From positions 97,030,001-97,094,000 of the forward strand of contig NC_043005.1 of the NCBI RefSeq assembly GCF_006345805.1: a stretch of 64,000 nucleotides of DNA. Direction: 5' to 3'. Positions 928-60,076 of this stretch are shown here, in pieces; the first letter of the stretch is position 1; each line of letters opens with the position of its first letter. The notes under the pieces were generated by a model that was not told where the DNA came from, ran no database searches, and was given only the letters and a program-made list of their open reading frames with translations. This stretch comes from Octopus sinensis. Taxonomy: Eukaryota. Made by a program: the position numbers and the translations under genes.

Positions 928-1511
928 TACATATATGCATTATATATATATATATATATACATATACATTATACACACACACATACAGACATACATACAC
1001 GCATACGTATATTCATAATATTTATATTCATACATATAGACATTCATATCTAAATGCTAATATTTAGTTAAAGGTGTAAACATTTCAAGTACCCATCTAC
1101 ATTATGAATATAAGACGTGATACGTTGGACAGTGTACAGTGTGACATTGTAAGCTGAATGCGAAGGAAATCGATTTTCATCTAGAATCATTTAAAAATCA
1201 ACTTGTAAATATGAGCAGCTCCTGGCGCTATTTTGTAGATTCCATTTCTATGAGCAAACTTTCCTGTATTTGGCACTTGTAGGATTTTCCTATATTTACG
1301 TGTATCTTTTTTCGATGACGTACATCATATGGAGTAGTGTTATGCATATACGCTGACATAACCATTCATTCACGCGCGCTAGCGCAAACACACATATACA
1401 CACACACACACACACAAACGCACGCACATACATGCATACATACAATAGACATCTATTTGTAATATTCTATTGCTTTTCTCCAAATTCATTAAGTTTAAAA
1501 ACTTCTCAACA

Positions 1512-1558
<47 letters not shown>

Positions 1559-1560
<2 letters not shown>

Positions 1561-2112
1561 GCCCTGATGCAGTACCAGGCAGTGGCTCTCATGGCTTCTG
1601 ATCTTAACTGACTGGAAGTGTTATCATGTACATTGTTTTGTCTTGGTATAAAAGATGGGCTACAGCAAATATTCTGCTCAATACCACAGATTTGCTTGTC
1701 AGTTGTTTGACCTTAACCAGTTGAGCATGTCCCTTAGTGGCTGACGATATGTGCATCTCTGATCACGAGCAGAAGTAGTGGGGGAGCATCATAGCCATGT
1801 GTTGAGAGGGATTCTTTGGGGTTGAATAGTTCACCTCTGGAAACATGGGTGGTTCTTTCAACATCCTTAAACAACCCTTATTCAGGGACCGTTTGAGCGG
1901 GATGGGCTACTCAACCTGAAGAGAATCTAACTGGGCCCCACCTGCAAGGTCATGTGCTGTTTATCTTGATATGAGATCACCATGTCGTGCACATATGGTT
2001 GTGATGCATGTGCCTGGTGTACCTTTATCAGACAGGTAGTCATGATGGGTATATTGGGCTTCGTATATTTTACCCCAGTGTCACTGTGATGGCATGAACT
2101 GCTCTCTCACTC
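1559..2112 (+). mobile_element. ~550-bp non-coding interspersed element (family E), copy 1, embedded in (AAT)n
   Basis: Begins atgccctgatgcagtaccaggc and ends ctctctcactc followed by (AAT)n. Four more near-identical copies in the window. No ORF. Orientation is assumed from the AAT tail. Confidence 0.85.
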
Positions 2113-2136
2113 AATAATAATAATAATAATAATAAT

Positions 2137-2685
2137 ATGCCCTGATGCAGTACCAGGCAGTGGCTCTCCTGGCTTCTGATCTTAACTGATTGAAAGTGTT
2201 ATCACGTACATTGTTTTGTCTTGGTATAAAAGATGGGCTACAGCAAATATTCTGCTCAATACCACAGATTTGCTTGTCAGACTTTAGCCAGTTGAGGATG
2301 TCCCTTAGTGGCTGACGATATGTGCATCGCTGATCACGAGCAGAAGTAGTGGGGGAGCATCATAGCCATGTGTTGAGAGGGATTCTTTGGGGTTTTAATA
2401 ATTCATCTCTGGAAACATGGGTGGTTCGTTCAACATCCTTAAACAACCCTTATTCAGGGACCTTTTGAGCGGGATGGGCTACTCAACCTGAAGAAAATTC
2501 TAACTGGGCCCCACCTGCAAGGTCATGTGCTGTTTATCTTGATATGAGATCACCATGTCGCGCACATATGGTTGTGATGCATGTGCCTAGTGTACCCTTA
2601 TCAGACGAGTAGTCATGATGGGTATATTGGGCTTCGTATATTTTACCCCAGTGTCACTTTGATGGCATGAACCGCTCTCTCACTC
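2137..2685 (+). mobile_element. family E copy 2 (tandem with copy 1)
   Basis: Same 5' and 3' termini as copy 1, separated from it only by an (AAT)n tract. Confidence 0.85.
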
Positions 2686-2760
2686 AATAATAATAATAAT
2701 AATAATGATAATAATAATAATAATACCAACAACAACAATAATAATAATGGTAATAATAAT

Positions 2761-2909
2761 TTTCATATGTTTTCAGAGGCATTCGCTAGAACAATACTCT
2801 GTGCAAAACCAAAAGTATAGCACCTTTGTCATAACACTTGAACTTGTCTCTTGAGGTTTCTGGATAAGATTTGGCGTCAACGTGTAGAAATACATAGCAA
2901 AAGCCAAAC

Positions 2910-2952
<43 letters not shown>

Positions 2953-3133
2953 TTTATATTACTTTTAAAACAAACTTTTAATTTGCTTATGTCTTGAAAG
3001 ACATTGTCTAGAACAATACTCTATGCAAAACTAAATATATGGCACCCTAGTCATAGCACCAAGTTGAACTTCTAACTTGTCTCTTGAGATCTCTGGGTGA
3101 GACTTGTACAAGCACGAAGCAAAAGCCAAATAT
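2761..3133 (+). mobile_element. two tandem 5'-truncated retroelement 3' ends with (AAT)n tails (probable R4/Dong-like 3'UTR)
   Basis: 2761-2912 and 2953-3133 share ctagaacaatactct...cttgtctcttgag...gcaaaagccaaa and end in (t)ataat. The Dong assignment is inferred from (TAA)n targeting. Confidence 0.5.
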
Positions 3134-3136
3134 ATA

Positions 3137-3677
3137 ATGTACCCTGATGCAATACCAAGCAGTGGCTTTCATGACATCTGATCTTAACTGTTATCATGTG
3201 TTTTCACGTAAATGTTTTGTCTTGATGTAAAAGATGGGCTATAACAAATATTCTGCTCAATACTACAGATTTGCTTGTCCTTGATAGCTTACGGTATATG
3301 CGTCTCTGATCACGAGCAGAAGTAGTGGGAGAGCATCATAGCCATGTGTTGAAAGGAATTCTTAGGGGTTTGGATAATTCATCACTGGAAATATGGGCAT
3401 TTCGTTCAACATCCTTAAACAAACCTTATTCAGGATCCTTTTGAGCAGGATGGGCTATACGACATGAAAATTCTAATTGGGCCCCATCTGTAAGGTCACC
3501 CGCTATTTATTTTAATAACGAATCATCATGTCGTACACATACGGTTGTGATGCATGTGGCTGGTGTACCTTTATCCTCAGACGGGTATACGTTGACCTTC
3601 GTATATGTTATGTTGACCTTCGTATATGTTATGTTGACCCCAGAGTCACTTTGATGTCATGCACAGCTCTCTCACTC
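3137..3677 (+). mobile_element. family E copy 3 (more diverged)
   Basis: Colinear with copies 1-2, with an internal deletion and a 21-bp tandem duplication near 3590-3640. Confidence 0.8.
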
Positions 3678-3739
3678 AGCAACAACAGCAACAGGAACAA
3701 CAAGTTAGAGAACAAGAACAAGAACAACAATATTGATTT

Positions 3740-16589: not shown

Positions 16590-17140
16590 AATCATGGTTG
16601 CCCCCTCGTTATCGAGTATGGCCATTGCACGAAGCTTAACTGTTACTGGTGCTGTGATCGAATGTGACTTTTTAGCCCAGCTAAAGATCTACAATGTCTT
16701 GTACAGAATTGGCAGTTAAAACCTTTACCGGCCAACAGCCGGCTGTAGTTGTAACTGGGCTTCATGTAACTTTGCACGTCGCTTAAGTTTTCCTGCCGAA
16801 TCACACTCTCTTCCACAGATATGATTAGTATGGTGTGTTACACCACCACCAGTGGCCAGGTTGTCACTCATCTGTCTCGCTTTATGACTACGAAGGTGAC
16901 TTTTGAGTCCAACTTTACAGAGGCAGGCTCTTGCACAGACATTGCATGTCAGCATCAAAGGAAGACCCTTCCCTTCTGGAAGTGTAACAGCGATGCCCTT
17001 CCTCACATCCCTCCTTACTTTCTCATGTGCAACTCGAGATTTCTGAAAAGTGGCCGTCCCCTCATGCACAATTCTTCCCCACCTGCTACGATCAATAGCT
17101 ATGCCTTCCCATGTATTTTGTGATGGTGTTCTGTATTGCA
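16590..17140 (-). mobile_element. RTE LINE 3' segment (ORF C-terminus with C2H2-type finger, plus 3'UTR)
   Basis: TWEGIAIDRSRWGRIVHEG...TCNVCARACLCKVGLKSHLRSH, followed by a terminal stem-loop ctcgataacgag near 16600. Confidence 0.8.
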
Positions 17141-17903
17141 TTCAGAAAATGCGGATACGGTGTTTACGTCCATTATCGAATCTCTGGCAGCATATTTAAT
17201 ATCAGGCGCCTTGCTGCAAAAACAAAGGTATTTACCTCTATCGTAAGAAACCTTTTGTATGCAGATGATTGTGAGCTAGTAGCACACACAGAGATTGATA
17301 TGCAACACATTTTGAATGCATTCTCTGATGCTTGCACTGCCTTAGGATTGACAGTCAATCTCAAGAAAACTGTTGTCATGCATCAACCTGCCCCTGGTAA
17401 GCAGTATAGTGTACCAAATATCTATGTGTATGGTAAACGACTTGATGTAGTCGATCAGTTTGTCTACCTGGGAAGCACTATTAACAGATATAACAAGTTG
17501 GATTATGAAATTCCATATAGAATTAGGAAAGCAAGTGTTGCTTTCGGAAGGCTAGAAAAGCGCCTCTGGAGTCGGCGTAAGACAAAGATAAAGGTGTCCA
17601 AGGCATGTGTGCTCCCTTCTCTTCTCTATGCCTGCGAGACGTGGGTCACACATCGATACCACCTTAAACAACTGGAACCTTTCCATCAGATGTGCCTCAG
17701 ACGGATCTATGGCATTAAGTGGAAGGACTGCATCAGTGATCTTGAAATATTAGAAGGCTCTCGGTGTGAAAGTATACAAGCTCTTGTGTTAAAGCAAAGG
17801 CTCAGATGGAGTGGTCATCTAGTCAGGATGAAGGATTCAAGGATGCCAAAACAACTCTTTTATGGAGAGTTAGCTAAAGGAAAACGACATAAAAAGAGGT
17901 ATA
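17141..17903 (+). mobile_element. RTE LINE reverse transcriptase segment (inverted relative to its 3' end)
   Basis: YRISGSIFNIRRLAAKTK...LLYADDC...FVYLGSTI...LLYACETW...RLRWSGHLVRM.DSRMPKQLFYGEL is typical RTE-clade RT and thumb. Confidence 0.92.
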
Positions 17904-17927
17904 CGCAAATTCATACATACATACTTG

Positions 17928-17992
<65 letters not shown>

Positions 17993-18044
17993 TTACATGT
18001 ATATATATATAGAGAGAGAGAGAATGCTAAAATAAATTTATCAT

Positions 18045-18255
18045 AAAAAACATTTTAGTACCGGTTTCAGTCATTGAAACTTTTCAACTCTAAGTATGGA
18101 AAACAATTAAATTTTGGGAAAAAAAGTTTTTTAAAAGAATATTTGCATAGTATTCAAATACAAGGGGCATTTCTCTTATTTCTGCCTGTCTCAGTCTCTC
18201 CTTTTTACTCTTGTGGGTTCGAGGTCGTTGTGAATTCTTGGCAGAGAATAATAAC

Positions 18256-22960: not shown

Positions 22961-23137
22961 CATTGACTGTTGTCTCTTGTTCGTTTCTTTACTACTTATT
23001 ATTACTATTATTATTGTACCAGTTAATCACTGGGGTCGATGTAATTGACTTAATCCCCTTGTCTGTCCTTGTTTGTTCCCTCTATGTTTAGACCCCTGTA
23101 GGCAATAAAGAAATAAATTATTATTATTATTATTTTT

Positions 23138-23666
23138 GAGTGACACTGGGGTAAAATATATGAAACCCAGCATACCCATCATGACTACCCGTCTGATAAG
23201 GGTACACCAAGCACATGCATCACAACCAGATGTGCGCGACATGGTGATCTCATATCAAGATAAAGAGCGCATGACTTTGCAGGTGGGGCCCAGTTGGAAT
23301 TTTTTTCTGGTCGAGTAACCCATCTCGCTCAAAAGGTCCCTGAATAAGGGTTGTTTAAGGATGTTGAACGAACTATTCATGTTTCCAAAGGTGAATTATC
23401 CAAACCACCAAGAATTCCTTACAACACATGGCTATGATGCTCCCCCACTACTTCTGCCCATGATCAAGAGATGTACATATCGTCAGCCACTAAGGGACAT
23501 CCTCAACTGGCTATGGTCAAACAAGTAACAAGCAAATCTGTGGTATTGAGCAGAATATTTGCTGTAGCTCATCTTTTATACCAAGACAAAACAATGTACA
23601 TGATAACACTTCCAGTCAGTTAAGATCAGAAGCCATGAGAGCCACTGCCTGGTACTGCATGAAGGC

Positions 23667-23668
<2 letters not shown>
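23138..23668 (-). mobile_element. family E copy 4
   Basis: Reverse complement of 1559-2112, with a short microhomology deletion near its 3' end, flanked by (ATT)n. Confidence 0.85.
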
Positions 23669-23721
<53 letters not shown>

Positions 23722-24276
23722 GAGTGAGAGAGCATTGCATGCCATCAAAGTGACACTGGGGTAAAATATACGAAGCCCAGTATACCCATCAGGACTGGCC
23801 GTCTGATAAGGGTACACTAGGCACATGCATCACAACCATATGTGCGTGACATGGTGATCTCAAATCAAGATAAACAGCGCATGACCTTGCAAGTGGGGCC
23901 CAGTTAGAATTTTCTTCAGATCGAGTAACCCATCCCGCTCAAAAGGTCCCCAAATAAGAGTTGTTTAAGGATGTTGAACGAAACACCCATGTTTCCAAAA
24001 GTGAATTATCCAAATCTCTAAGAATCCCTTTCAACACATGGCTATGATGCTCCCCCACTACTTCTGCTCGTGGTTAGAGATGTACATATCATCAGACACT
24101 AAGAGAACGCTCAACGGGTTATAGTCAAACAACTGACAAGAAAATCTGTGGTATTGAGTAGAATATTTGCTGTAGCCCATCTTTTATACCAAGACAAAAC
24201 AATGTACATGATAACACTTCCACTCAGTTAAGATCAGAAGCCATGAGAGCCACTGCCTGGTACTGCATCTGGGCAT
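23722..24276 (-). mobile_element. family E copy 5 (tandem with copy 4)
   Basis: Full-length reverse-complement copy with (ATT)n on both sides. Confidence 0.85.
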
Positions 24277-24996
24277 TTATTATTATTATTATTATTATCG
24301 TTTTTTTTCATTGCTTGGAGACTTTCGATTCTTAAATCAAGAACTGGGTATATCTCTGAAATATATAAAAGAGATTGAGACTGATGTTTCAAGGTTAACA
24401 AAAAAATGCTCAAGTTTCAATGCTGTTTGAAAATACCCAAACAATATTTAAAGACCCTGGTATTGCTATTTTTCTGGAACGTTCCTCTGTCTATCTTCAA
24501 AGGCAATCTGTCAATGTCACTACAAAAAGTGTGGTGATTAATAACTCCAGTTGTATCAATTACTAGTGGGGATGATAATCACATCCATTAACAAGTAGCA
24601 AATTGTTTGGGTCAGTGCATTTGTCAGTGCGTTGTATAGAATACATCGCGGTATTTGTACCGATTATCCGCTCTCTGAGTTCAAATCCCACCGACGTCAA
24701 TGGTGCATTTCATTCTTTCGTGGAAGATAAAAATAAGATTTACCAATCCAGGGTGGCGTATTGACGAAACAGTTAGAGGAGGATCGAGGGATATGCGTCA
24801 ACAGGAACGTCTGAACATCATTATAGGGCCCGGGTAAATTAGTGCACAGGGCCCTTAAGTATTTATTTTTGACAGCAAGCCAGAACAGACAGTGATCCAA
24901 ATTGGGTATCCAGACTCACGAAGCTCCCGGGCAACTGCCTGTGTGCCCACGCACTAAGATCGCACTGTGCCTGATGGCATCTACCTTGGTGTTTGA

Positions 24997-25229
24997 AAGG
25001 TGGCGAGCTGGTAGAAACGTTAGCACGCCGGGCGAAATGCTTAGCGGTATCTCGTCTGCCGCTACGTTCTGAGTTCAAATTCCGCCGAGGTCGACTTTGC
25101 CTTTCATCCTTTTGGGGTCGATTAAATAAGTACCAGTTACGCACTGGGGTCGATATAATCGACTCAATCCGTTTGGCTGTCCTTGTTTGTCCCCTCTGTG
25201 TATAGCCCCTTGTGGGTAGTAAAGAAATA
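24997..25229 (+). mobile_element. tRNA-derived SINE family A, full length, with a 21-bp TSD
   Basis: A-box (gagctggtagaa), B-box (gagttcaaattcc) and central gaggtcgactttgcctttcatcc domain. Flanks ggcatctaccttggtgtttga / ggtatctgccttggtgtttga. Confidence 0.9.
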
Positions 25230-26762
25230 GGTATCTGCCTTGGTGTTTGACAGAAACACCTAAAACAACACTAATGCCAAGCTGTATCGGTGGTCTTACT
25301 GTTGGATAAACATTGATGACGCGGCGAGAAGAGACTTGTATAAAAAGGCAACTGCTAGTTCTGTTAGAAACAATCTTACCCAAGCTTTCCCGAAGTTGTG
25401 CAGATGCAAGGTAAACATTGATCAACGAAAGACAATGTTTTTAATTCAACAGCTTGGTTGATATATTTCTTTAGATTTCCAGCACACTTTTGTATAGCTT
25501 TACATTTATTTGCTATGTCGATAATCAGTACACTATTGGGAGTTTTATAATGGCAAAGGATGCTAGGTTTATTGTGACGTATCTAGTGGTCTGTATGTTT
25601 GTAAAAAATAGTTTCACACTGTCATTTTCCAAAACAAATCTATATTTATCTAGATTTATATGAGTATTACAAATAACATTTATCTCGGTATAGACCAGTA
25701 GCTATTTTAATTTAACTTCGGTCTCCATAGAAAGCTGCAAGGAAGTAATTTTTGCTACACAGACACTTGGAAAACTCAGTGCTTGCTTCAGTTTAAAACC
25801 AAATAATGTCTTCAAGGCAATTTAATTATCACCACGTGAATGATCCTTTTGAAAAATGCTGTTTTGCACTTTACCGCTCTATTCTGTGAACTTTTAGCTG
25901 GAAGTGAGAATAATAAAAACAAAGAATAATGAGACATGTACACAAATACACACCTAGATACACAAATACACGTATATATATATATATACCACAAATGCAC
26001 ACATCGATGCATACAAACAAAATACACATTCAAATACATACATAGAAACATACATAGATAAACGCAGTCAGTACAAATTCAAATATAAATACATGCACTT
26101 ACACAGACACATGTACTTACACAGACACATGCACACAATTGGACAGAAATAGAAAATCAAATAAACACACATGCATACAAAGTTTCTCACATACAGACAC
26201 ATGCAAGCATGTATATACGGTAAACACGATCAAACGATTACACAGTCATATACAGACATAAATTCAGACGTACACATGTTTATATGTTTATACATATACA
26301 CATACAAACACGCACACATACATTTATATGTATACAAACTAAAATGCGGGCAAGGTATTATGTGTATATATGAGTACACCTTCACATGCACACACTCAAA
26401 TATATATATATACAGCTTACACATCTTGCCTACACGTATAAATAGGATCACACACTTACATAAGCTCTCGTAGAGAAATAAGCATATAAATATTAATGTG
26501 TAGTATAAACATATACGTATTAATATGTATACATATATGCAAGTTCATACGCACTGATACACACATTGTCACTCACACACACAAAACACATTCATACACA
26601 CGTGAATATATTCATACAGGCATACAGTTATGCACATATACATATATTGACGGCTAGAATTTTAATGGTAATACAAGAACGTGCAGGCACACATTTCTGT
26701 TATCAAGCACACACTCTAGTACTATAACGCACACACAAACACACACATACACACGTATATTT

Positions 26763-39095: not shown

Positions 39096-40847
39096 CACAG
39101 TAGTACCAACAGTAACAACCACACAGAACATGCACAGCTGCGCACATATAGACAGGCATACACGCACGCTAACGAATAACTATCCTAAGGTTTCATTTCT
39201 GTCCTACGCAGTTCTCTACCTTCGCCAGTTTCGGCTAAATCCACCACCACCACCAAAACCACCACCACCACCACCACCACCACCACCACTACCACCACCA
39301 CCACCACCGCTTATGTTTTGCCCCTTTAACACGTAATTACTTAGATAATTAAATAAGTGAATAGTACGCGTGTTCTAATTCAAACATTGCTGGTTCGAGG
39401 TCAAGGGTGTTCGGGTGAAAGATTAAGGTCTGCCGATCTACACAATGACGACGAAGGAATGAAGATGGTGGCGGTGGTAGTGACGGTGTTTGGTGGAGAT
39501 GGTGTTGGTGGCGGCGGTAGTGCAGGTTGTAATGCTGGTGTGTAATGATGTTCGTGTTGAGGTTGATGTATTGTGACGGTAGTGGTGGTAGTTCTGATGG
39601 TTGCGATTACGGTGGTAGTGGTGGGGATGTTGGTGATTGCGGTAATGGTTTAATTGTGCTGGTGGTGATGGTTGTGGTGGTGATGGTGCTATTAGTTGTC
39701 GTGGGGCATTGATGGTTGTGATGCACGATGTAATAAGATTTCCAACGGTGGTGATGATGGTGGTGGTGGTGGTGGTGTTGGTTGTGCTGGAGACGTTGAT
39801 AATGGGTGTCGCGATGGTTCTGCTGATTGTTGTGGTGGTGGTTGTAGCAGTGGCATTGTTGATCGTAGTGCTGGAGAAGATAAAGGTGAATATGCTAGTA
39901 GTGGTGATGGTTGTAGTGGTAGCGATGGTTAATGTAGTGGTGTTGGTGGCAGTGATGGTGATGACGATGATGCGGATGGTGGTTGTGTCAGAAATTATGT
40001 TCGTGGTGTCGAAGTCTGAAGTTTGGATTTGAAAGATCAAAGGAACTTAAAGAGATAAAGCGCGCACGCATGCGCGTGTGTATAGATATGAGTGTGTGTG
40101 TGTATGCGTGTGTGTGAGTGAGTGTATGCGTGTGCGTGATTGCTATGATGCCAGCTCACGTCCATCCTCCCTCTGCCGATGTATGTTGAGGTGGCGGAAT
40201 CACAGAAGTGAGTGGAATCATACAAAAAATTAATATGTGGGTATGTGGGTGAGTGTGGGGGAACAAAACAGGAGTGGGACTTTGGATAGGTTTAGAAACA
40301 GGGGCGGGCTATGATGTTATTTAACCTTGGGCCAGCTATCATTTAGTGGACCTGATCAAAGGCGTTTCGGCGTCTTTGAATTTCGTTTTAGAATATCTAG
40401 GACTATATCATTATTCGATGCGTCCTATATTTTTGTAGAGACAGTAGGTTGTAATTTGAGGGAGATTTGCTTGCTATTACTGGCATATCGAACGATGGCG
40501 AGTTTGCTTCTTTTCGTGGCTCGAACGGTAAATGTAACAGCAGAATATCTGATGGTGGTGATGACAGTGACAGTGATGGGGGTGATGACAGTGGTGGTGG
40601 TAATAGGAATGGTGAAGGCTATAGAGTTTGTGGTGGTAGTAGCAGTGACGGTGGTGGTGGTGGTGGCGGTAGTGATGGCGAGGATGGTAGTGGTGGCGGT
40701 ATTCCAGGTGGTGGAGATGGTATAGATCTTGGTGGTAGTGATGATAATGGTGTGAAGCACAGTTTCATTCTGTGGGAAAATGGAGCTGACGATGATGGTG
40801 GCAATGGTGCCATTAAAGATGTTGATGGTAGGAGCCATGATTATAGC

Positions 40848-41222
40848 AGTGGTGGTGGTGATGCAAACGCTGATGGTTGCAGTGGTGGTGGTGATGCAAA
40901 CGCTGATGGTTGCAGTTTGTTGGGTGATGCAAACGCTGATGGTTGCAGTGGTGGTGGTGATGCAAACGCTGATGGTTGCAGTGGTGGTGGTGATGCAAAC
41001 GCTGATGGTTGCAGTGGTGGTGGTGATGCAAACGCTGATGGTTGCAGTGGTGGTGGTGATGCAAACGCTGATGGTTGCAAGTGGTGGTGTGATGCAAACG
41101 CTGATGGTTGCAGTGGTGGTGGTGATGCAAACGCTGATGGTTGCAGTGGTGGTGGTGATGCAAACGCTGATGGTTGCAGTGATGGTGGTGATGCAAACGC
41201 TGATGGTTGCAGTGGTGGTGGT
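40848..41222. repeat. 33-bp minisatellite, ~11 copies
   Basis: Unit gtggtggtggtgatgcaaacgctgatggttgca repeated head-to-tail with few variants. Confidence 0.95.
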
Positions 41223-41364
41223 GGTAGTCATTGAGAGTTAAGTACTGTTCCATAATGTGAAAAGTTCTTGAAATGGTGCCATACCGTTTCTCTCAGCTTA
41301 TCTCATTAGCTTAATTGCAACAACATCTTACATTTCGTTTCTGTGTGCAAAAGCACAGGTACAG

Positions 41365-42519: not shown

Positions 42520-43028
42520 ATAACTTGCACATGCAAGTGCTACAAGTCAAAAGCTCCGTATACCGGAAGCCAGCAAGTGTATGGGGTCATCAGGAGAGAA
42601 TTCGCGCCGTTTTGGGGCCTACCACTCGACGGCATCAATGCGTACCGGTCCCCCTCACTGATATGAAGCCCCGCTTGCTAGATCCTTCTAGCCATCGCTC
42701 ATCCTCTCTTTTTAATCAAATCCAGTGGCTAGCCTTCTCCACTGTAGATTGGATATCGGTCATGGTGGTATTGACTTTACGATGAGTTAGGCCTAACGAT
42801 AACAACAGTCGTCTCACACTGTGTCCAACGAACCCTCTACATCCGACTTCGATTGGAAAATGTTCCGCTTTCCAGCCTGCGTCTTCACATTCCTCGAGGA
42901 GGTTTACATAACGGTCAATCTTTCGAGCCCGAGCGGCGTCCATATTATCTTCATGAGGAACCGTTAACTCGACTTTATTTACAACTTTCTTTCTTTCACA
43001 CCACATCAAAATATCTGTTTTTTTTCGT
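42520..43028 (-). mobile_element. HERO-like (RLE) non-LTR retrotransposon 3' end
   Basis: DILMW..ELTVPHEDNMDAARARKIDRY..L...GWKAEHFPIEVGCRGFVG...VEKASHWI*LKR is a restriction-like endonuclease C-terminus, followed by a 3'UTR. Confidence 0.85.
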
Positions 43029-43035
43029 AATTGGG

Positions 43036-53843: not shown

Positions 53844-55089
53844 CAGGGTGTCCCAAAAAAATGTATGCACACTTTAAACAATTGTAAAGTAGTTGTTTAT
53901 TAAAAGACACTTCATTTTCAAAATTTAATAGAATCTACAGACATTATTTTATTGTTTTGTCAATGCCTGTTTTCAAACTGATGTCCGGTCTGGTCCAGGC
54001 ACTGCTGACAACGCAAAGGAATGGAATCACAAATATCACAAAAGAATTTGTTTGGTATTTGTGTGCACTCTCGTCCGATGGCTGCTCTCAAATCAGCGAC
54101 TTGTAGATTTCATAGCGTAGAATTTGTCTTTAAGTTATCCCCATAAAAAAGTCTAGTGGTGTGAGGTCTGGTGAATTCAACCATACCTCTTCATCCAATT
54201 CACCTGTTTAGCAAGATCTCATCAAGGAAGGATCTAACATAGCAATGGTAATGTGGGGGTGCCCCATCTTGCTGAAAATAAAACTCCTCATCTTCAAAGT
54301 CTTCTCTAATGCTTGGCATAACAGACTGTTGCAACAAGTTCAAGTAAACGGGACCAGTCACAGTAGCATAACAAAAGAATGGTCCAATTAATCCTCTTGA
54401 TGATAAACCACACCACACAAATATCAAATTAACATGGTGTTTCACCATAACATGCAGATTCTCAGGACCCCAGTAGGTGCAATTGTGGCAGTTAATTGAA
54501 CCATTTAATTTGAATGTGGCTTCATCACTCCACACAATCTTTGTTGGAAAGTGTGCAGCTTCTACACATCGTTCCAAGTACCACTCGCAATGCTGCACTC
54601 TTTCGTCTGGATCATCATCATTAATAGCATGGACTAATCTTGGAATGTAACTTTTCCATTGACAATGCTTCAAAATGCATTGGACAGATGATTTTGGAAT
54701 ACCTACCTCATGACTCGCTTTGCCGCACAGATTTTCTTGGACTTTGGTGATTCATTTCCAGTACTCCTTGCTTTGTTGGGGTTGTTGATGTTCGGGATCT
54801 TCTGGAATGCTTATCGTGGACATTCTGAACAGTTCCATCAGCTTCAAACTTATCTCTAATTCAAGTGATAGGGAGTTGCATTGGTGGATCTGTTTGAAAC
54901 TCCCTCCCTAACTGTTTTTGCACTTCAACTGCATTTTCACACTTCCAGTATCATTTTAGAATGGATTTTCTTCGTTCAAAGCTTAATCTGACTGCCATCA
55001 TTAAATCCTATAGGTTTCATCTGGAAAGAAAACATATCACTTGAGTTATCAGCTGCTAAAGTGTGTATGCATTTTTTTGGGACACCCTG
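53844..55089 (-). mobile_element. full-length Tc1/mariner DNA transposon, DD41D (rosa/Visitor)-type, inactivated
   Basis: ~33-bp TIRs cagggtgtcccaaaaaaatg(t/c)at(g/a)cacacttta with TA flanks, enclosing a transposase relic. Confidence 0.92.
53960..55001 (-). pseudogene. DD41D-type transposase pseudogene
   Basis: MAVRLS...IRDKFEADGTV...[11 protein letters not shown]...[15 protein letters not shown]...FQQDGAPPH...PDLTPLDF. D-to-D spacing is 41 if a deleted PPRS is restored (my reconstruction). Stops and frameshifts present. Confidence 0.85.
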
Positions 55090-59062: not shown

Positions 59063-60076
59063 CGCTTGGTCTCGGTGATGTGTATTCAGATGTTCTACCA
59101 TTTGAATTCTTGTCGATTCTTGTCAACATGCATGTGACTGAGTATTCCGTAGCGCAAATCTGACGGGAGTCAGCGACGAGGCTGGACCTTCGAATTGCCG
59201 GTACAATCAAAAGAATGGGCGAGAGAGAGAGAGAGAGAGAGAGGGGGGGAGGAGCGAATCGATTCTAGTATTAGACTTGGACTCTATTTATCGATACGGT
59301 AAGGATAAAAGGCGAAAGCGATCTTGGTGGGATTTGAACAAATACTGCAAGGTATTTATTTGCTACTCTATTATTACAATTGAAAAAAAGATGCTTCTTA
59401 TACCAAAGAGACACAGAATTGCGCCTGAGCGTGCAGTGAAAGCACATTATAAAAATAAGACTACTGAGATGATTATCAGACTGTCGTTCGATGTGGAGGG
59501 TTTAGTTTTTCGACCAGCTTCATTACCTGCTCCTGAATTAATGTGTAAATGGCCGAGTTTTGCACTGCGATGTGCAAGCTTAAGTTAATTCACAAGCAGA
59601 ACCAGTGTGACACACTTTATGACAAGGCTGTATTGTTTATAACACTGGTACAATCTAAGCGACGGATTTGGATAATTTCCTTCTATCCAGTTTCACTCGC
59701 AAGGCATAGATCGACTTTAAGAAAATCACATTTACCCAAGATGTTACGAAGTGGAGTCGACCACAGGATCTTATCTTTTCGGAGCGAACTTCTGAGTCGT
59801 TTACTCGAAACAGAAAACAACACAGCATTAAAGCCATAGAAATCTTATTTTTTACATCTCTAACTAAAAGAGAAGGATGAAGTGTTGCTGAAGTATGTAC
59901 ACAAAATAACACATAGATAACTGTCAGAATGTACGAGAAAGAAATATGCACAAGAGAAATGCTGAAACATATGTAAAAGACATGGGCAAGGATATATAAA
60001 TTTAAATTGGAATATGGAAGGTTACATAGTTATTTCCAATATTCCCCTAGGAATAACTGTATGAAGAACAAATATT

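What the first reader, a model, noticed from the sequence alone, without database searches (positions are those of the whole stretch)
1511..3725. Fixed-end ~550-bp non-coding element that arrays itself inside (AAT)n microsatellites
Seen: the region reads (AAT)n-E-(AAT)n-E-(AAT)n-UTR-(AAT)n-UTR-E. All five E copies in the window (three here, two at 23.1-24.3 kb) have the same two termini and the same polarity relative to the AAT strand. They show no ORF, no TIR and no recognisable tRNA B-box. Copy 3's flanks are degenerate (tataat left, AAC-rich right). Known: Dong (R4-clade) retrotransposons insert specifically into (TAA)n. Inference: E is a non-autonomous passenger of a sequence-specific R4/Dong-type endonuclease, and each insertion regenerates its own target, so microsatellites grow into multi-kb element arrays. 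The absence of 5' truncation suggests a defined RNA start (internal promoter or self-cleaving 5' end).
Basis: partly seen in the sequence, partly recalled or inferred. Interest (0 to 1): 0.7.

Follow-up and report, generated by a model that had tools for sequence, protein, structure and literature searches.

The report
Repeat-seeking hitchhiker of Dong retrotransposons
This is a very abundant 557-base non-coding repeat that sits in AAT repeats facing the same way as the genome's many Dong-type jumping genes and likely borrows their enzyme, although it shares no detectable sequence with them and how its RNA starts is unknown.

Summary
E is real. The window holds five copies, and a 26-mer near its 3' end has 12,804 exact hits genome-wide. 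It is not fixed-ended: 34 of 79 sampled copies are 5'-truncated and all 79 keep the 3' end, the signature of target-primed reverse transcription. (AAT)n lies upstream of 66 of 79 copies, (ATT)n of 2. Dong/R4-type LINE tails lie within 400 nt upstream of 23 of 79, all co-oriented; background 0 of 150. The window's 'UTR' pieces are Dong 3' UTRs. E shows no sequence similarity to 14 Dong tail families, no tRNA head or Rfam match, and no ribozyme by an unvalidated descriptor. Junction duplications still point to a defined RNA start. Dong tails share a covarying stem-loop; E has a look-alike that does not score significantly. E positions 104-273 also occur inside a TA-flanked MITE, which likely captured them. 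Verdict: a SINE-like passenger, likely of Dong/R4 and microsatellite-targeted; a new variant of a known kind.

The parts
1512..1558 (+). (AAT)n target tract, 5' flank of copy 1
1559..2112 (+). E copy 1, full length, youngest (98.7% to family majority)
1559..1661 (+). E head (E positions ~1-103): no Rfam, tRNA or repeat homologue found; in one young copy elsewhere it folds as a closed multi-branch domain (z -2.4)
1661..1828 (+). Segment of E (positions 104-273) shared with the interior of a ~495-bp TA-flanked MITE family (F)
2012..2061 (+). 3' stem-bulge-stem hairpin of copy 1; look-alike of the conserved Dong 3' UTR stem-loop, score not significant
2113..2136 (+). (AAT)n: tail of copy 1 and 5' flank of copy 2
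2137..2685 (+). E copy 2, full length with a 7-nt internal deletion (97.4% to majority, 96.2% to copy 1)
2585..2633 (+). 3' hairpin of copy 2 (-27.3 kcal/mol)
2686..2760 (+). AAT-rich tract
2751..2911 (+). 5'-truncated Dong-type LINE, 3' UTR only (family B)
2912..2952 (+). (AAT)n tail of the first Dong 3' UTR piece
2963..3135 (+). Second Dong family B 3' UTR piece
3142..3677 (+). E copy 3, old (84.9% to majority), with an internal deletion and a 21-nt tandem duplication at 3591-3639
3678..3730 (+). Decayed, AAC-rich tail of copy 3
23117..23134 (-). (AAT)n on the minus strand, 3' flank of copy 4
23139..23668 (-). E copy 4, lacks the last ~27 nt
23669..23721 (-). (AAT)n on the minus strand between copies 5 and 4
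23722..24276 (-). E copy 5, full length (92.6% to majority, 90.0% to copy 4)
24277..24296 (-). (AAT)n on the minus strand, 5' flank of copy 5

Best explanation
E is a 557-nt non-coding repeat of at least 12,800 copies that lies in (AAT)n tracts with a fixed 3' end and a variable 5' end, and it is likely copied into those tracts by the reverse transcriptase and endonuclease of the co-oriented Dong/R4-type LINEs. Shown: copy number, polarity, 5' truncation, shared target, shared orientation, and no detectable sequence shared with the Dong tails sampled. Inferred steps: (1) E is transcribed into an RNA that likely starts within ~5 nt upstream of the GCCC at its head, by a promoter or cleavage not identified; (2) a Dong protein would bind the 3' region in trans, likely through the (AAU)n tail helped by a stem-bulge-stem hairpin that resembles the one conserved in Dong 3' UTRs; (3) the endonuclease would nick the (ATT)n strand and prime reverse transcription; (4) synthesis often stops early, and the 5' join is made by short homology to the target, sometimes after a false start that duplicates the first bases; (5) both flanks remain (AAT)n, so later E and Dong copies land beside earlier ones and mixed arrays build up.
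For: Polarity and truncation: 45 full-length and 34 5'-truncated of 79, with 79 of 79 reaching the 3' end. Of 29 rows anchored on the 5' motif, 25 run to the 3' end. Target: (AAT)3 upstream of 66 of 79 against (ATT)3 upstream of 2; downstream 75 against 0; background 16 and 11 of 2,220. Truncated copies also abut (AAT)n directly, so the repeat is a target and not only a tail. Shared site and strand: Dong tails within 400 nt upstream of 23 of 79 copies (all same strand) and downstream of 9 (8 same strand); Dong ORF fragments in 30 flanks, 30 on the same strand; 0 of 150 background windows hold a tail. A young partner pool exists: 124 scored matches at 98-100% to one family, a 1,208-aa frame with RVT_1 whose only solved relatives are R2 proteins. 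E follows the tail on the same strand in 4 of 12 long copies of that family. Two fused elements carry a Dong-type ORF end and then E's 3' end with no AAT run between (L185; L217). Defined RNA start: in 15 of 100 full-length copies a partial E piece joins directly within ~5 nt of the head, and none has a partial piece joined through an AAT run. Literature: Dong inserts in (TAA)n in insects, molluscs and cnidarians (PMC7998251, passages; PMC3812793, passages).
Against: No sequence similarity between E and 82 Dong tails in 14 clusters (best E 0.70), or between E's last 120 nt and 14 family tails (z at most 1.25). R1 and R2 are described as needing their own 3' UTR (PMC3414825, abstract). A model built from 11 Dong tails scores E's hairpin at only 9.7-17.8 bits (E 0.1-5); in the youngest subfamily another site of E outscores it. 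The loop lies 74 nt from the tail in E against 42-59 nt in Dong families. The hairpin's stability is only borderline once the choice of window is counted (2 of 40 shuffles). About one in seven copies (11 of 79) lacks an AAT-rich 5' flank. The two fusions can also be E insertions that deleted a Dong tail. Sharing a target does not prove sharing an enzyme. The R4/Dong label rests on domain layout and target; no tree with reference elements was built. The 79 copies come from the first 24 Mb of one contig and include a few local duplicates.
Confidence: 0.65

Rival explanations
1. Same Dong/R4 machinery, but E is an ordinary LINE-derived passenger: its head, its tail or both descend from a Dong family that I did not sample or that is extinct (R2-SIDE or EhSINE type).
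For: An octopus annotation lists 51 Dong-R4 families (PMC13282606 supplement); I sampled about 15 tails and the 5' ends of only two families fully. Tails of different Dong families mostly show no detectable similarity to each other, so old homology could be lost. E's hairpin falls in register with the Dong model.
Against: Contigs of four runs laid on E's last 183 nt show no well-supported foreign sequence joining upstream among the loose ends displayed (1,042 weaker rows not shown). The same test did reveal the MITE that shares E's middle. Two genome-wide patterns linking a Dong ORF-end motif to E's tail gave 1 and 2 hits, of which two are one-off fusions. No other family shares E's head in 218 sequences, 0.9 Mb.
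Confidence: 0.2
2. E is mobilised by another element that also uses AAT/ATT repeats: a Tx1-like LINE, a Penelope-like element, RTE or HERO.
For: Some HERO families target microsatellites (PMC4640811, passages). Earlier unreviewed notes on this genome report a Tx1-like family in ATT repeats. An octopus annotation lists many Penelope-like families.
Against: The HERO-like family of this genome ends in (AAT)n in 0 of 20 copies and shares nothing with E. The noted Tx1 family lies opposite to Dong (not checked here), whereas E is co-oriented with Dong. No convincing hammerhead: one core with a 2-bp stem II, and no truncations cluster at its predicted cut near position 174. The junction duplicates mostly repeat the head or an inner piece of E, not its 3' end as a pseudo-LTR would.
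Confidence: 0.1
3. E is not a TPRT product but a solo LTR (it begins TG and ends CA), a DNA element, or a unit spread by recombination between AAT tracts.
For: Full-length copies can be read as TG...CA. Some neighbours are near-identical tandem pairs (L123, L119). A 170-nt part occurs in a MITE.
Against: One-sided 5' truncation in 34 of 79 copies, strict strand polarity to the repeat, no TIR, no adjacent internal domain in 79 flanks, and neighbouring window copies of clearly different age.
Confidence: 0.03

Closest known systems
R2 SIDEs and R2/R1 hybrid SIDEs of Drosophila (PMC3414825: abstract and section 8 read; PMC3774820: passages)
   Same: Short non-coding passengers of a site-specific non-LTR element; they use the partner's target and show variable 5' junctions.
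   Different: SIDEs are made of the partner's ribozyme plus its 3' UTR, are rare, and sit in rDNA. E shows no detectable Dong-derived head or tail, has no ribozyme found, numbers over 12,800, and sits in dispersed (AAT)n.
EhSINE1 of Entamoeba histolytica (PMC1635306 and PMC3118788: passages)
   Same: A non-coding SINE moved by a LINE with a restriction-like endonuclease. Its R4-clade placement and similar length are recalled, not seen in a call.
   Different: EhLINE and EhSINE lack targeted insertion. EhSINE1 shares its 3' end with EhLINE1 (recalled); E shares none with the Dong tails sampled and is strictly microsatellite-bound.
Dong elements of the R4 clade (Bombyx Dong, DongAG, DongBG, ostracod Dong; 'Dong-R4' of octopus annotations)
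   Same: (TAA)n target, polarity, frequent 5' truncation, (AAT)n after the 3' end.
   Different: E encodes nothing. Bombyx Dong has an HDV-like ribozyme at its 5' end; none was found in E.
tRNA-, 5S- or snRNA-headed SINEs and bipartite non-autonomous LINEs (PMC5786205: passages)
   Same: Short, high-copy, TPRT-type non-autonomous repeat with age-structured subfamilies.
   Different: No small-RNA head or A/B boxes, three internal T4 runs, no LINE-derived tail found. That paper names only RTE, Ingi, Vingi and R2 as sources of bipartite non-autonomous LINEs.

Membership tests
Non-autonomous non-LTR retroelement (TPRT product) | Dispersed, high copy, no coding capacity | tested here: met
   12,804 exact hits; longest ATG frame 35-50 aa; no tblastn similarity to the Dong ORF
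Non-autonomous non-LTR retroelement (TPRT product) | Fixed 3' end with a simple-repeat tail and variable 5' truncation | tested here: met
   34 of 79 5'-truncated, 79 of 79 reach the 3' end; 25 of 29 5'-anchored rows complete
Passenger of Dong/R4 | Same target and polarity as Dong | tested here: met
Passenger of Dong/R4 | Intact, young partner present | tested here: met
   1,208-aa frame, copies 98-100% alike; clade label not tested by a tree
Passenger of Dong/R4 | Mobilisation in trans by the Dong protein | not testable with these tools
   needs an assay; two fused elements are only suggestive
Passenger of Dong/R4 | 3' recognition structure shared with Dong | tested here: inconclusive
   Dong motif covaries; E look-alike scores 9.7-17.8 bits, E 0.1-5
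SIDE / bipartite non-autonomous LINE | 3' end homologous to the partner's 3' UTR | tested here: not met
   82 tails in 14 clusters; 14 family tails, z at most 1.25; unsampled families remain
SIDE / bipartite non-autonomous LINE | 5' end homologous to the partner's 5' UTR | tested here: inconclusive
   no match to the 5' ends of families A and F1 or to one partial relative; other families not seen
SIDE / bipartite non-autonomous LINE | [quoted passage not shown] | tested here: inconclusive
   0 hits with my descriptor, which had no positive control and also gave 0 on the Dong A 5' region; Rfam none
Classical SINE (tRNA, 5S, 7SL or snRNA head) | Small-RNA-derived head with Pol III A and B boxes | tested here: not met
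   no boxes, three T4 runs; ARAGORN 0; Rfam none
Penelope-like passenger / retrozyme | Hammerhead ribozyme and pseudo-LTR architecture | tested here: not met
   one weak core with a 2-bp stem II; no truncation peak at its cut; duplicates repeat the head or an inner piece, not the 3' end
Solo LTR or MITE | Both ends intact, no strand polarity to the target, TIRs or an internal domain | tested here: not met

The most novel reading that the evidence does not exclude
E is a SINE-like parasite of a site-specific R4/Dong enzyme that arose without taking any LINE sequence: it is recognised by structural mimicry of a stem-loop conserved across Dong 3' UTRs, and its ~100-nt head is an undescribed self-cleaving RNA or promoter that sets the 5' end inside an AAT tract.
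Probability: 0.17. Interest if true: 0.75.

Novelty: new variant of a known kind. Interest (0 to 1): 0.45.

Why it matters
Site-specific retrotransposons with a restriction-like endonuclease are described as needing their own 3' UTR, and their known passengers are cut-down copies of the partner. A passenger with over 12,800 copies and no detectable partner sequence would show that an R4/Dong enzyme accepts a foreign template. E would then be a natural test substrate for what such enzymes recognise, which bears on R2-type gene-insertion tools. The shared stem-loop in 11 diverged Dong tails is a directly testable candidate signal. The head is a candidate new 5'-processing or promoter element. 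If E proves to derive from an unsampled Dong family, it is still a first Dong-dependent SINE as far as my nine library searches reach, but an expected one.

Tried and rejected
Rfam at E up to 10 on the window region and on one young copy: only chance hits. A resemblance of the head to U1 snRNA or 5S rRNA was recalled from memory and is not backed by those scans. HDV descriptor: 0 hits, no positive control. Hammerhead: one weak core, rejected. I first read the Dong tail motif as a pseudoknot; the folds favour a nested stem-bulge-stem. L185 looked like the partner LINE, but the other 32 rows of that family end in their own tail, so it is a one-off fusion; an apparent likeness of that family's terminus to E was not significant (177 of 1,000 shuffles). 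L216 is a truncated E with a chance pattern match. Pfam scan of E's six frames did not run because of stop codons; coding remnants were checked only against one Dong protein. Expression: no RNA holder listed; all runs were contigs, so nothing on RNA start, strand or level. Substitution rates along E are flat (0.025-0.043) and show no protected domain. An 8-bp head-to-tail pairing is not significant (E 5.5). Full-text search for four 22-mers of E: 0 papers. Topic searches listed no paper describing a Dong-dependent SINE. Repbase, Dfam and the octopus repeat libraries could not be searched, and E very likely stands in them as an unclassified SINE or unknown repeat.
Full report
Observation. The region reads (AAT)n 1512-1558, E 1559-2112, (AAT)n, E 2137-2685, an AAT-rich tract, two pieces U (2751-2911, 2963-3135) separated by (AAT)n, and an old E at 3142-3677 with an AAC-rich tail. 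Two more copies lie on the minus strand at 23139-23668 and 23722-24276. All have one polarity to the AAT strand. E has no ORF of note and no TIR. The copy at 23139 lacks the last ~27 nt, so the termini are not all the same. The copies differ in age: 98.7, 97.4, 84.9, 92.6 and 92.6% to the family majority; copies 1 and 2 are 96.2% alike and copies 4 and 5 are 90.0% alike. The array therefore grew by separate insertions. The genome (G000, 2.72 Gb) is likely an octopus; that rests on recalled repeat types and on earlier unreviewed notes, not on a test of mine.

Copy number and polarity. A 26-mer near E's right end has 12,804 exact hits, its reversed control 0. A 26-mer at the left end has 5,604. 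I examined 79 of the first 100 listed 3'-motif hits, all in the first 24 Mb of contig C1 and including a few local duplicates. Of these 45 start within the first 10 nt, 34 are left-truncated at scattered positions (42 to 516), and 79 of 79 reach the right end. The motif lies ~16 nt from that end, so I ran the mirror test: of 30 loci anchored on the left motif 29 gave a row, and 25 run to the right end. The exceptions are an internal deletion, a head duplication, an interruption by another repeat and a short-tail copy. The plus strand is thus the RNA sense and E behaves as a product of target-primed reverse transcription. Public runs under five organism labels in ten studies hold E.

Target. 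(AAT)3 lies within 40 nt upstream of 66 of 79 copies and (ATT)3 upstream of 2; downstream the counts are 75 and 0; background 40-mers give 16 and 11 of 2,220. Truncated copies abut the repeat directly, so it is the landing site and not only a tail. The 3' junction is AATAAT in 67 of 79. Eleven of 79 have no AAT-rich left flank.

Partner. The flanks are full of LINE fragments. One family gave 124 scored matches at 98-100% and a 1,208-aa frame with RVT_1, a CCHC-type knuckle and a PD..D motif read from the sequence, and R2 proteins as its only solved relatives. With its (TAA)n flanks this is the R4/Dong layout (PMC7998251, passages; PMC3812793, passages); I built no tree with reference elements. 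The tails of 82 such fragments fall in 14 clusters. The window's U pieces are 3' UTRs of one of them. A Dong tail lies within 400 nt upstream of 23 of 79 E copies, always on E's strand, and downstream of 9 (8 on E's strand). ORF fragments occur in 30 flanks, all co-oriented. None of 150 background windows holds a tail. A HERO-like family, the other restriction-like candidate I could sample, ends in (AAT)n in 0 of 20 copies. An octopus annotation lists 51 Dong-R4 families and 1,279 unclassified SINE families (PMC13282606, part 1 of 3 of the text and the one supplement read). A second octopus paper reports a full-length Dong (PMC9115989, passages).

No shared sequence. E matches none of the 82 tails (best E 0.70). 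Its last 120 nt score no better than shuffles against 14 family tails. It does not match the 5' ends of the two families seen in full, and no other family shares its head in 0.9 Mb of fetched sequence. Contigs of four runs laid on its last 183 nt show no well-supported foreign upstream partner among the rows displayed. Two patterns that tie a Dong ORF-end motif to E's tail gave three hits genome-wide. Two are fusions: a Dong body, part of its UTR, then E's last ~98 nt (L185) or last ~37 nt at a 4-nt microhomology (L217), with no AAT run between. The other 32 rows of L185's family end in their own tail. Template jumps are known for R2 (PMC3414825, section 8), but an E insertion that deleted the Dong tail fits as well.

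Possible shared structure. Tails of diverged Dong families fold into a stem, small bulge, stem and 5-nt loop, with the loop 42-59 nt before the repeat in 12 of 13 representatives. On 11 of them 14 of 15 pairs change on both sides and 0 of 500 shuffles reach the score. I drew that structure from folds of the same sequences and left out one family that aligned badly, so the control leans in its favour. E has a hairpin of the same shape with loop GGGUA, 74 nt before the tail: z -6.1 for the chosen 49 nt of copy 2, but only 2 of 40 shuffles once the choice of window is counted. A model from the 11 tails places E's hairpin in register and ranks it first and third in the window, at 14-15 bits and E 0.6-0.8. 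Across other loci it gives 13.5-17.8 bits, against 20.5 and 14.7 for two Dong tails of clusters not in the model, and no hit for the left-out family. In the youngest subfamily it gives 9.7 bits and is outscored by a site in the head. This is a lead, not a finding.

The 5' end. Among 100 non-redundant full-length copies, 15 have a partial piece of E joined directly to the head (two of the 15 are related duplicates). Each join falls within about 5 nt upstream of GCCC. Among the 87 copies with an AAT run upstream, none has a partial piece joined through that run; only complete 3' ends occur there. This suggests that the cDNA ends at the head and so that the RNA has a defined start. What makes it is unknown: no A or B box, three T4 runs, no HDV-like fold by my descriptor (unvalidated), one implausible hammerhead core, no tRNA and no Rfam family. 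In one young copy the first ~105 nt fold as a closed multi-branch domain (z -2.4). Bombyx Dong self-cleaves by an HDV-like ribozyme (PMC3774820, passages), so a ribozyme remains the obvious thing to assay.

A shared middle. A recurrent loose end in three runs led to a second family with 584 exact motif hits. All 30 loci examined carry part or all of E 103-270 inside a ~495-bp element with ~100-nt inverted ends (80% alike) and TA at both termini, which is a Tc1/mariner-type MITE by its ends (my reading). The two majorities differ at 6 of 170 sites. MITE copies are 6.7-13.6% diverged (28 copies); E copies 0.4-13.7% (32 copies). Both CpGs of E's segment are decayed and nearly fixed in the MITE, and 20 older E rows carry E-type alleles. 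The MITE therefore likely captured a piece of an E copy (about 3 to 1), not the reverse.

Comparison and novelty. E works like an R2 SIDE or EhSINE1, a non-coding passenger of a restriction-like-endonuclease LINE, but fails the defining test of LINE-derived ends as far as sampled, and it is not a tRNA-headed SINE. PMC5786205 (passages) names only RTE, Ingi, Vingi and R2 as sources of bipartite passengers. Nine searches listed no Dong-dependent SINE. Repbase, Dfam, subscription papers and bioRxiv supplements were out of reach, and E probably sits unclassified in octopus repeat libraries. The retrozyme preprint (10.64898/2026.07.22.740005, passages) and PMC4640811 (passages) bear only on rivals. 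An earlier unreviewed note on this genome reached the same reading for what appears to be the same element; it is not independent support.

Verdict. A real, abundant, microsatellite-targeted non-autonomous retroelement, likely moved by Dong/R4 (0.65 without a LINE-derived end, 0.2 with one from an unsampled family). New variant of a known kind; interest 0.45.

Noticed in passing
L085-L114; shared part at window 1661-1828: A ~495-bp TA-flanked MITE family (at least 584 copies, 7-14% diverged) carries E positions 104-273 between its inverted ends; likely captured from an E copy.
   Followed up: yes
L013:1073-1121, L003:292-340, L142:1860-1908, L152:4249-4297 and others: Diverged Dong-type families share a stem-bulge-stem with a 5-nt loop at a nearly fixed distance (~52 nt) from the (AAT)n tail, with compensatory changes; a candidate recognition signal for the whole clade.
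   Followed up: partly
L185:1429-2300 (-); L217:1484-2100 (-): Fused elements with a Dong-type ORF end and E's 3' end, no AAT run between.
   Followed up: yes
L055, L084, L128, L135, L162, L063, L062, L066, L140, L173: 5' junctions with a false start: the first 10-230 nt of the insert, or an inner piece, precede the insert itself, in full-length and truncated copies alike.
   Followed up: partly
window 23139-23143; L184 (= L144): Short-tail copies ending at position ~530, at an inner TCACT that repeats at the true end; seen at two places.
   Followed up: partly
window 23020-23134 and 24995-25240: An abundant short repeat whose 3' end runs into the (ATT)n tract that holds copies 4 and 5; near E it mostly lies opposite to E (21 of 26 hits). 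Its tails may seed the arrays.
   Followed up: partly
window 42520-43030 (-): 5'-truncated copy of a HERO-like LINE family (label from recalled motifs); not tied to AAT repeats.
   Followed up: yes
window 17099-18046 (+): Reverse transcriptase fragment (RVT_1 just under cut-off), RTE-like by recalled motifs.
   Followed up: partly
window 40425-41237 (-) and 39438-40046 (-): Thr-rich open frames; the first contains a 33-bp minisatellite of 11.5 copies. Possibly mucin-like exons or only repeats; no Pfam hit.
   Followed up: partly
window 54200-54751 (-): 183-aa frame that reads like a Tc1/mariner transposase fragment (recalled motifs); no Pfam hit at E 0.01.
   Followed up: partly
window 59400-59468: Short decayed Dong family F1 tail.
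   Followed up: no
L149 (~1950-2100), L050:4388-4523: Dong tails followed by (ATT)n instead of (AAT)n; in L149 a truncated E follows that inverted tract on the Dong strand.
   Followed up: no
L043-L054: Dong family A copies show at least three different 5' extensions, two built on microsatellite-rich or A-rich sequence.
   Followed up: no
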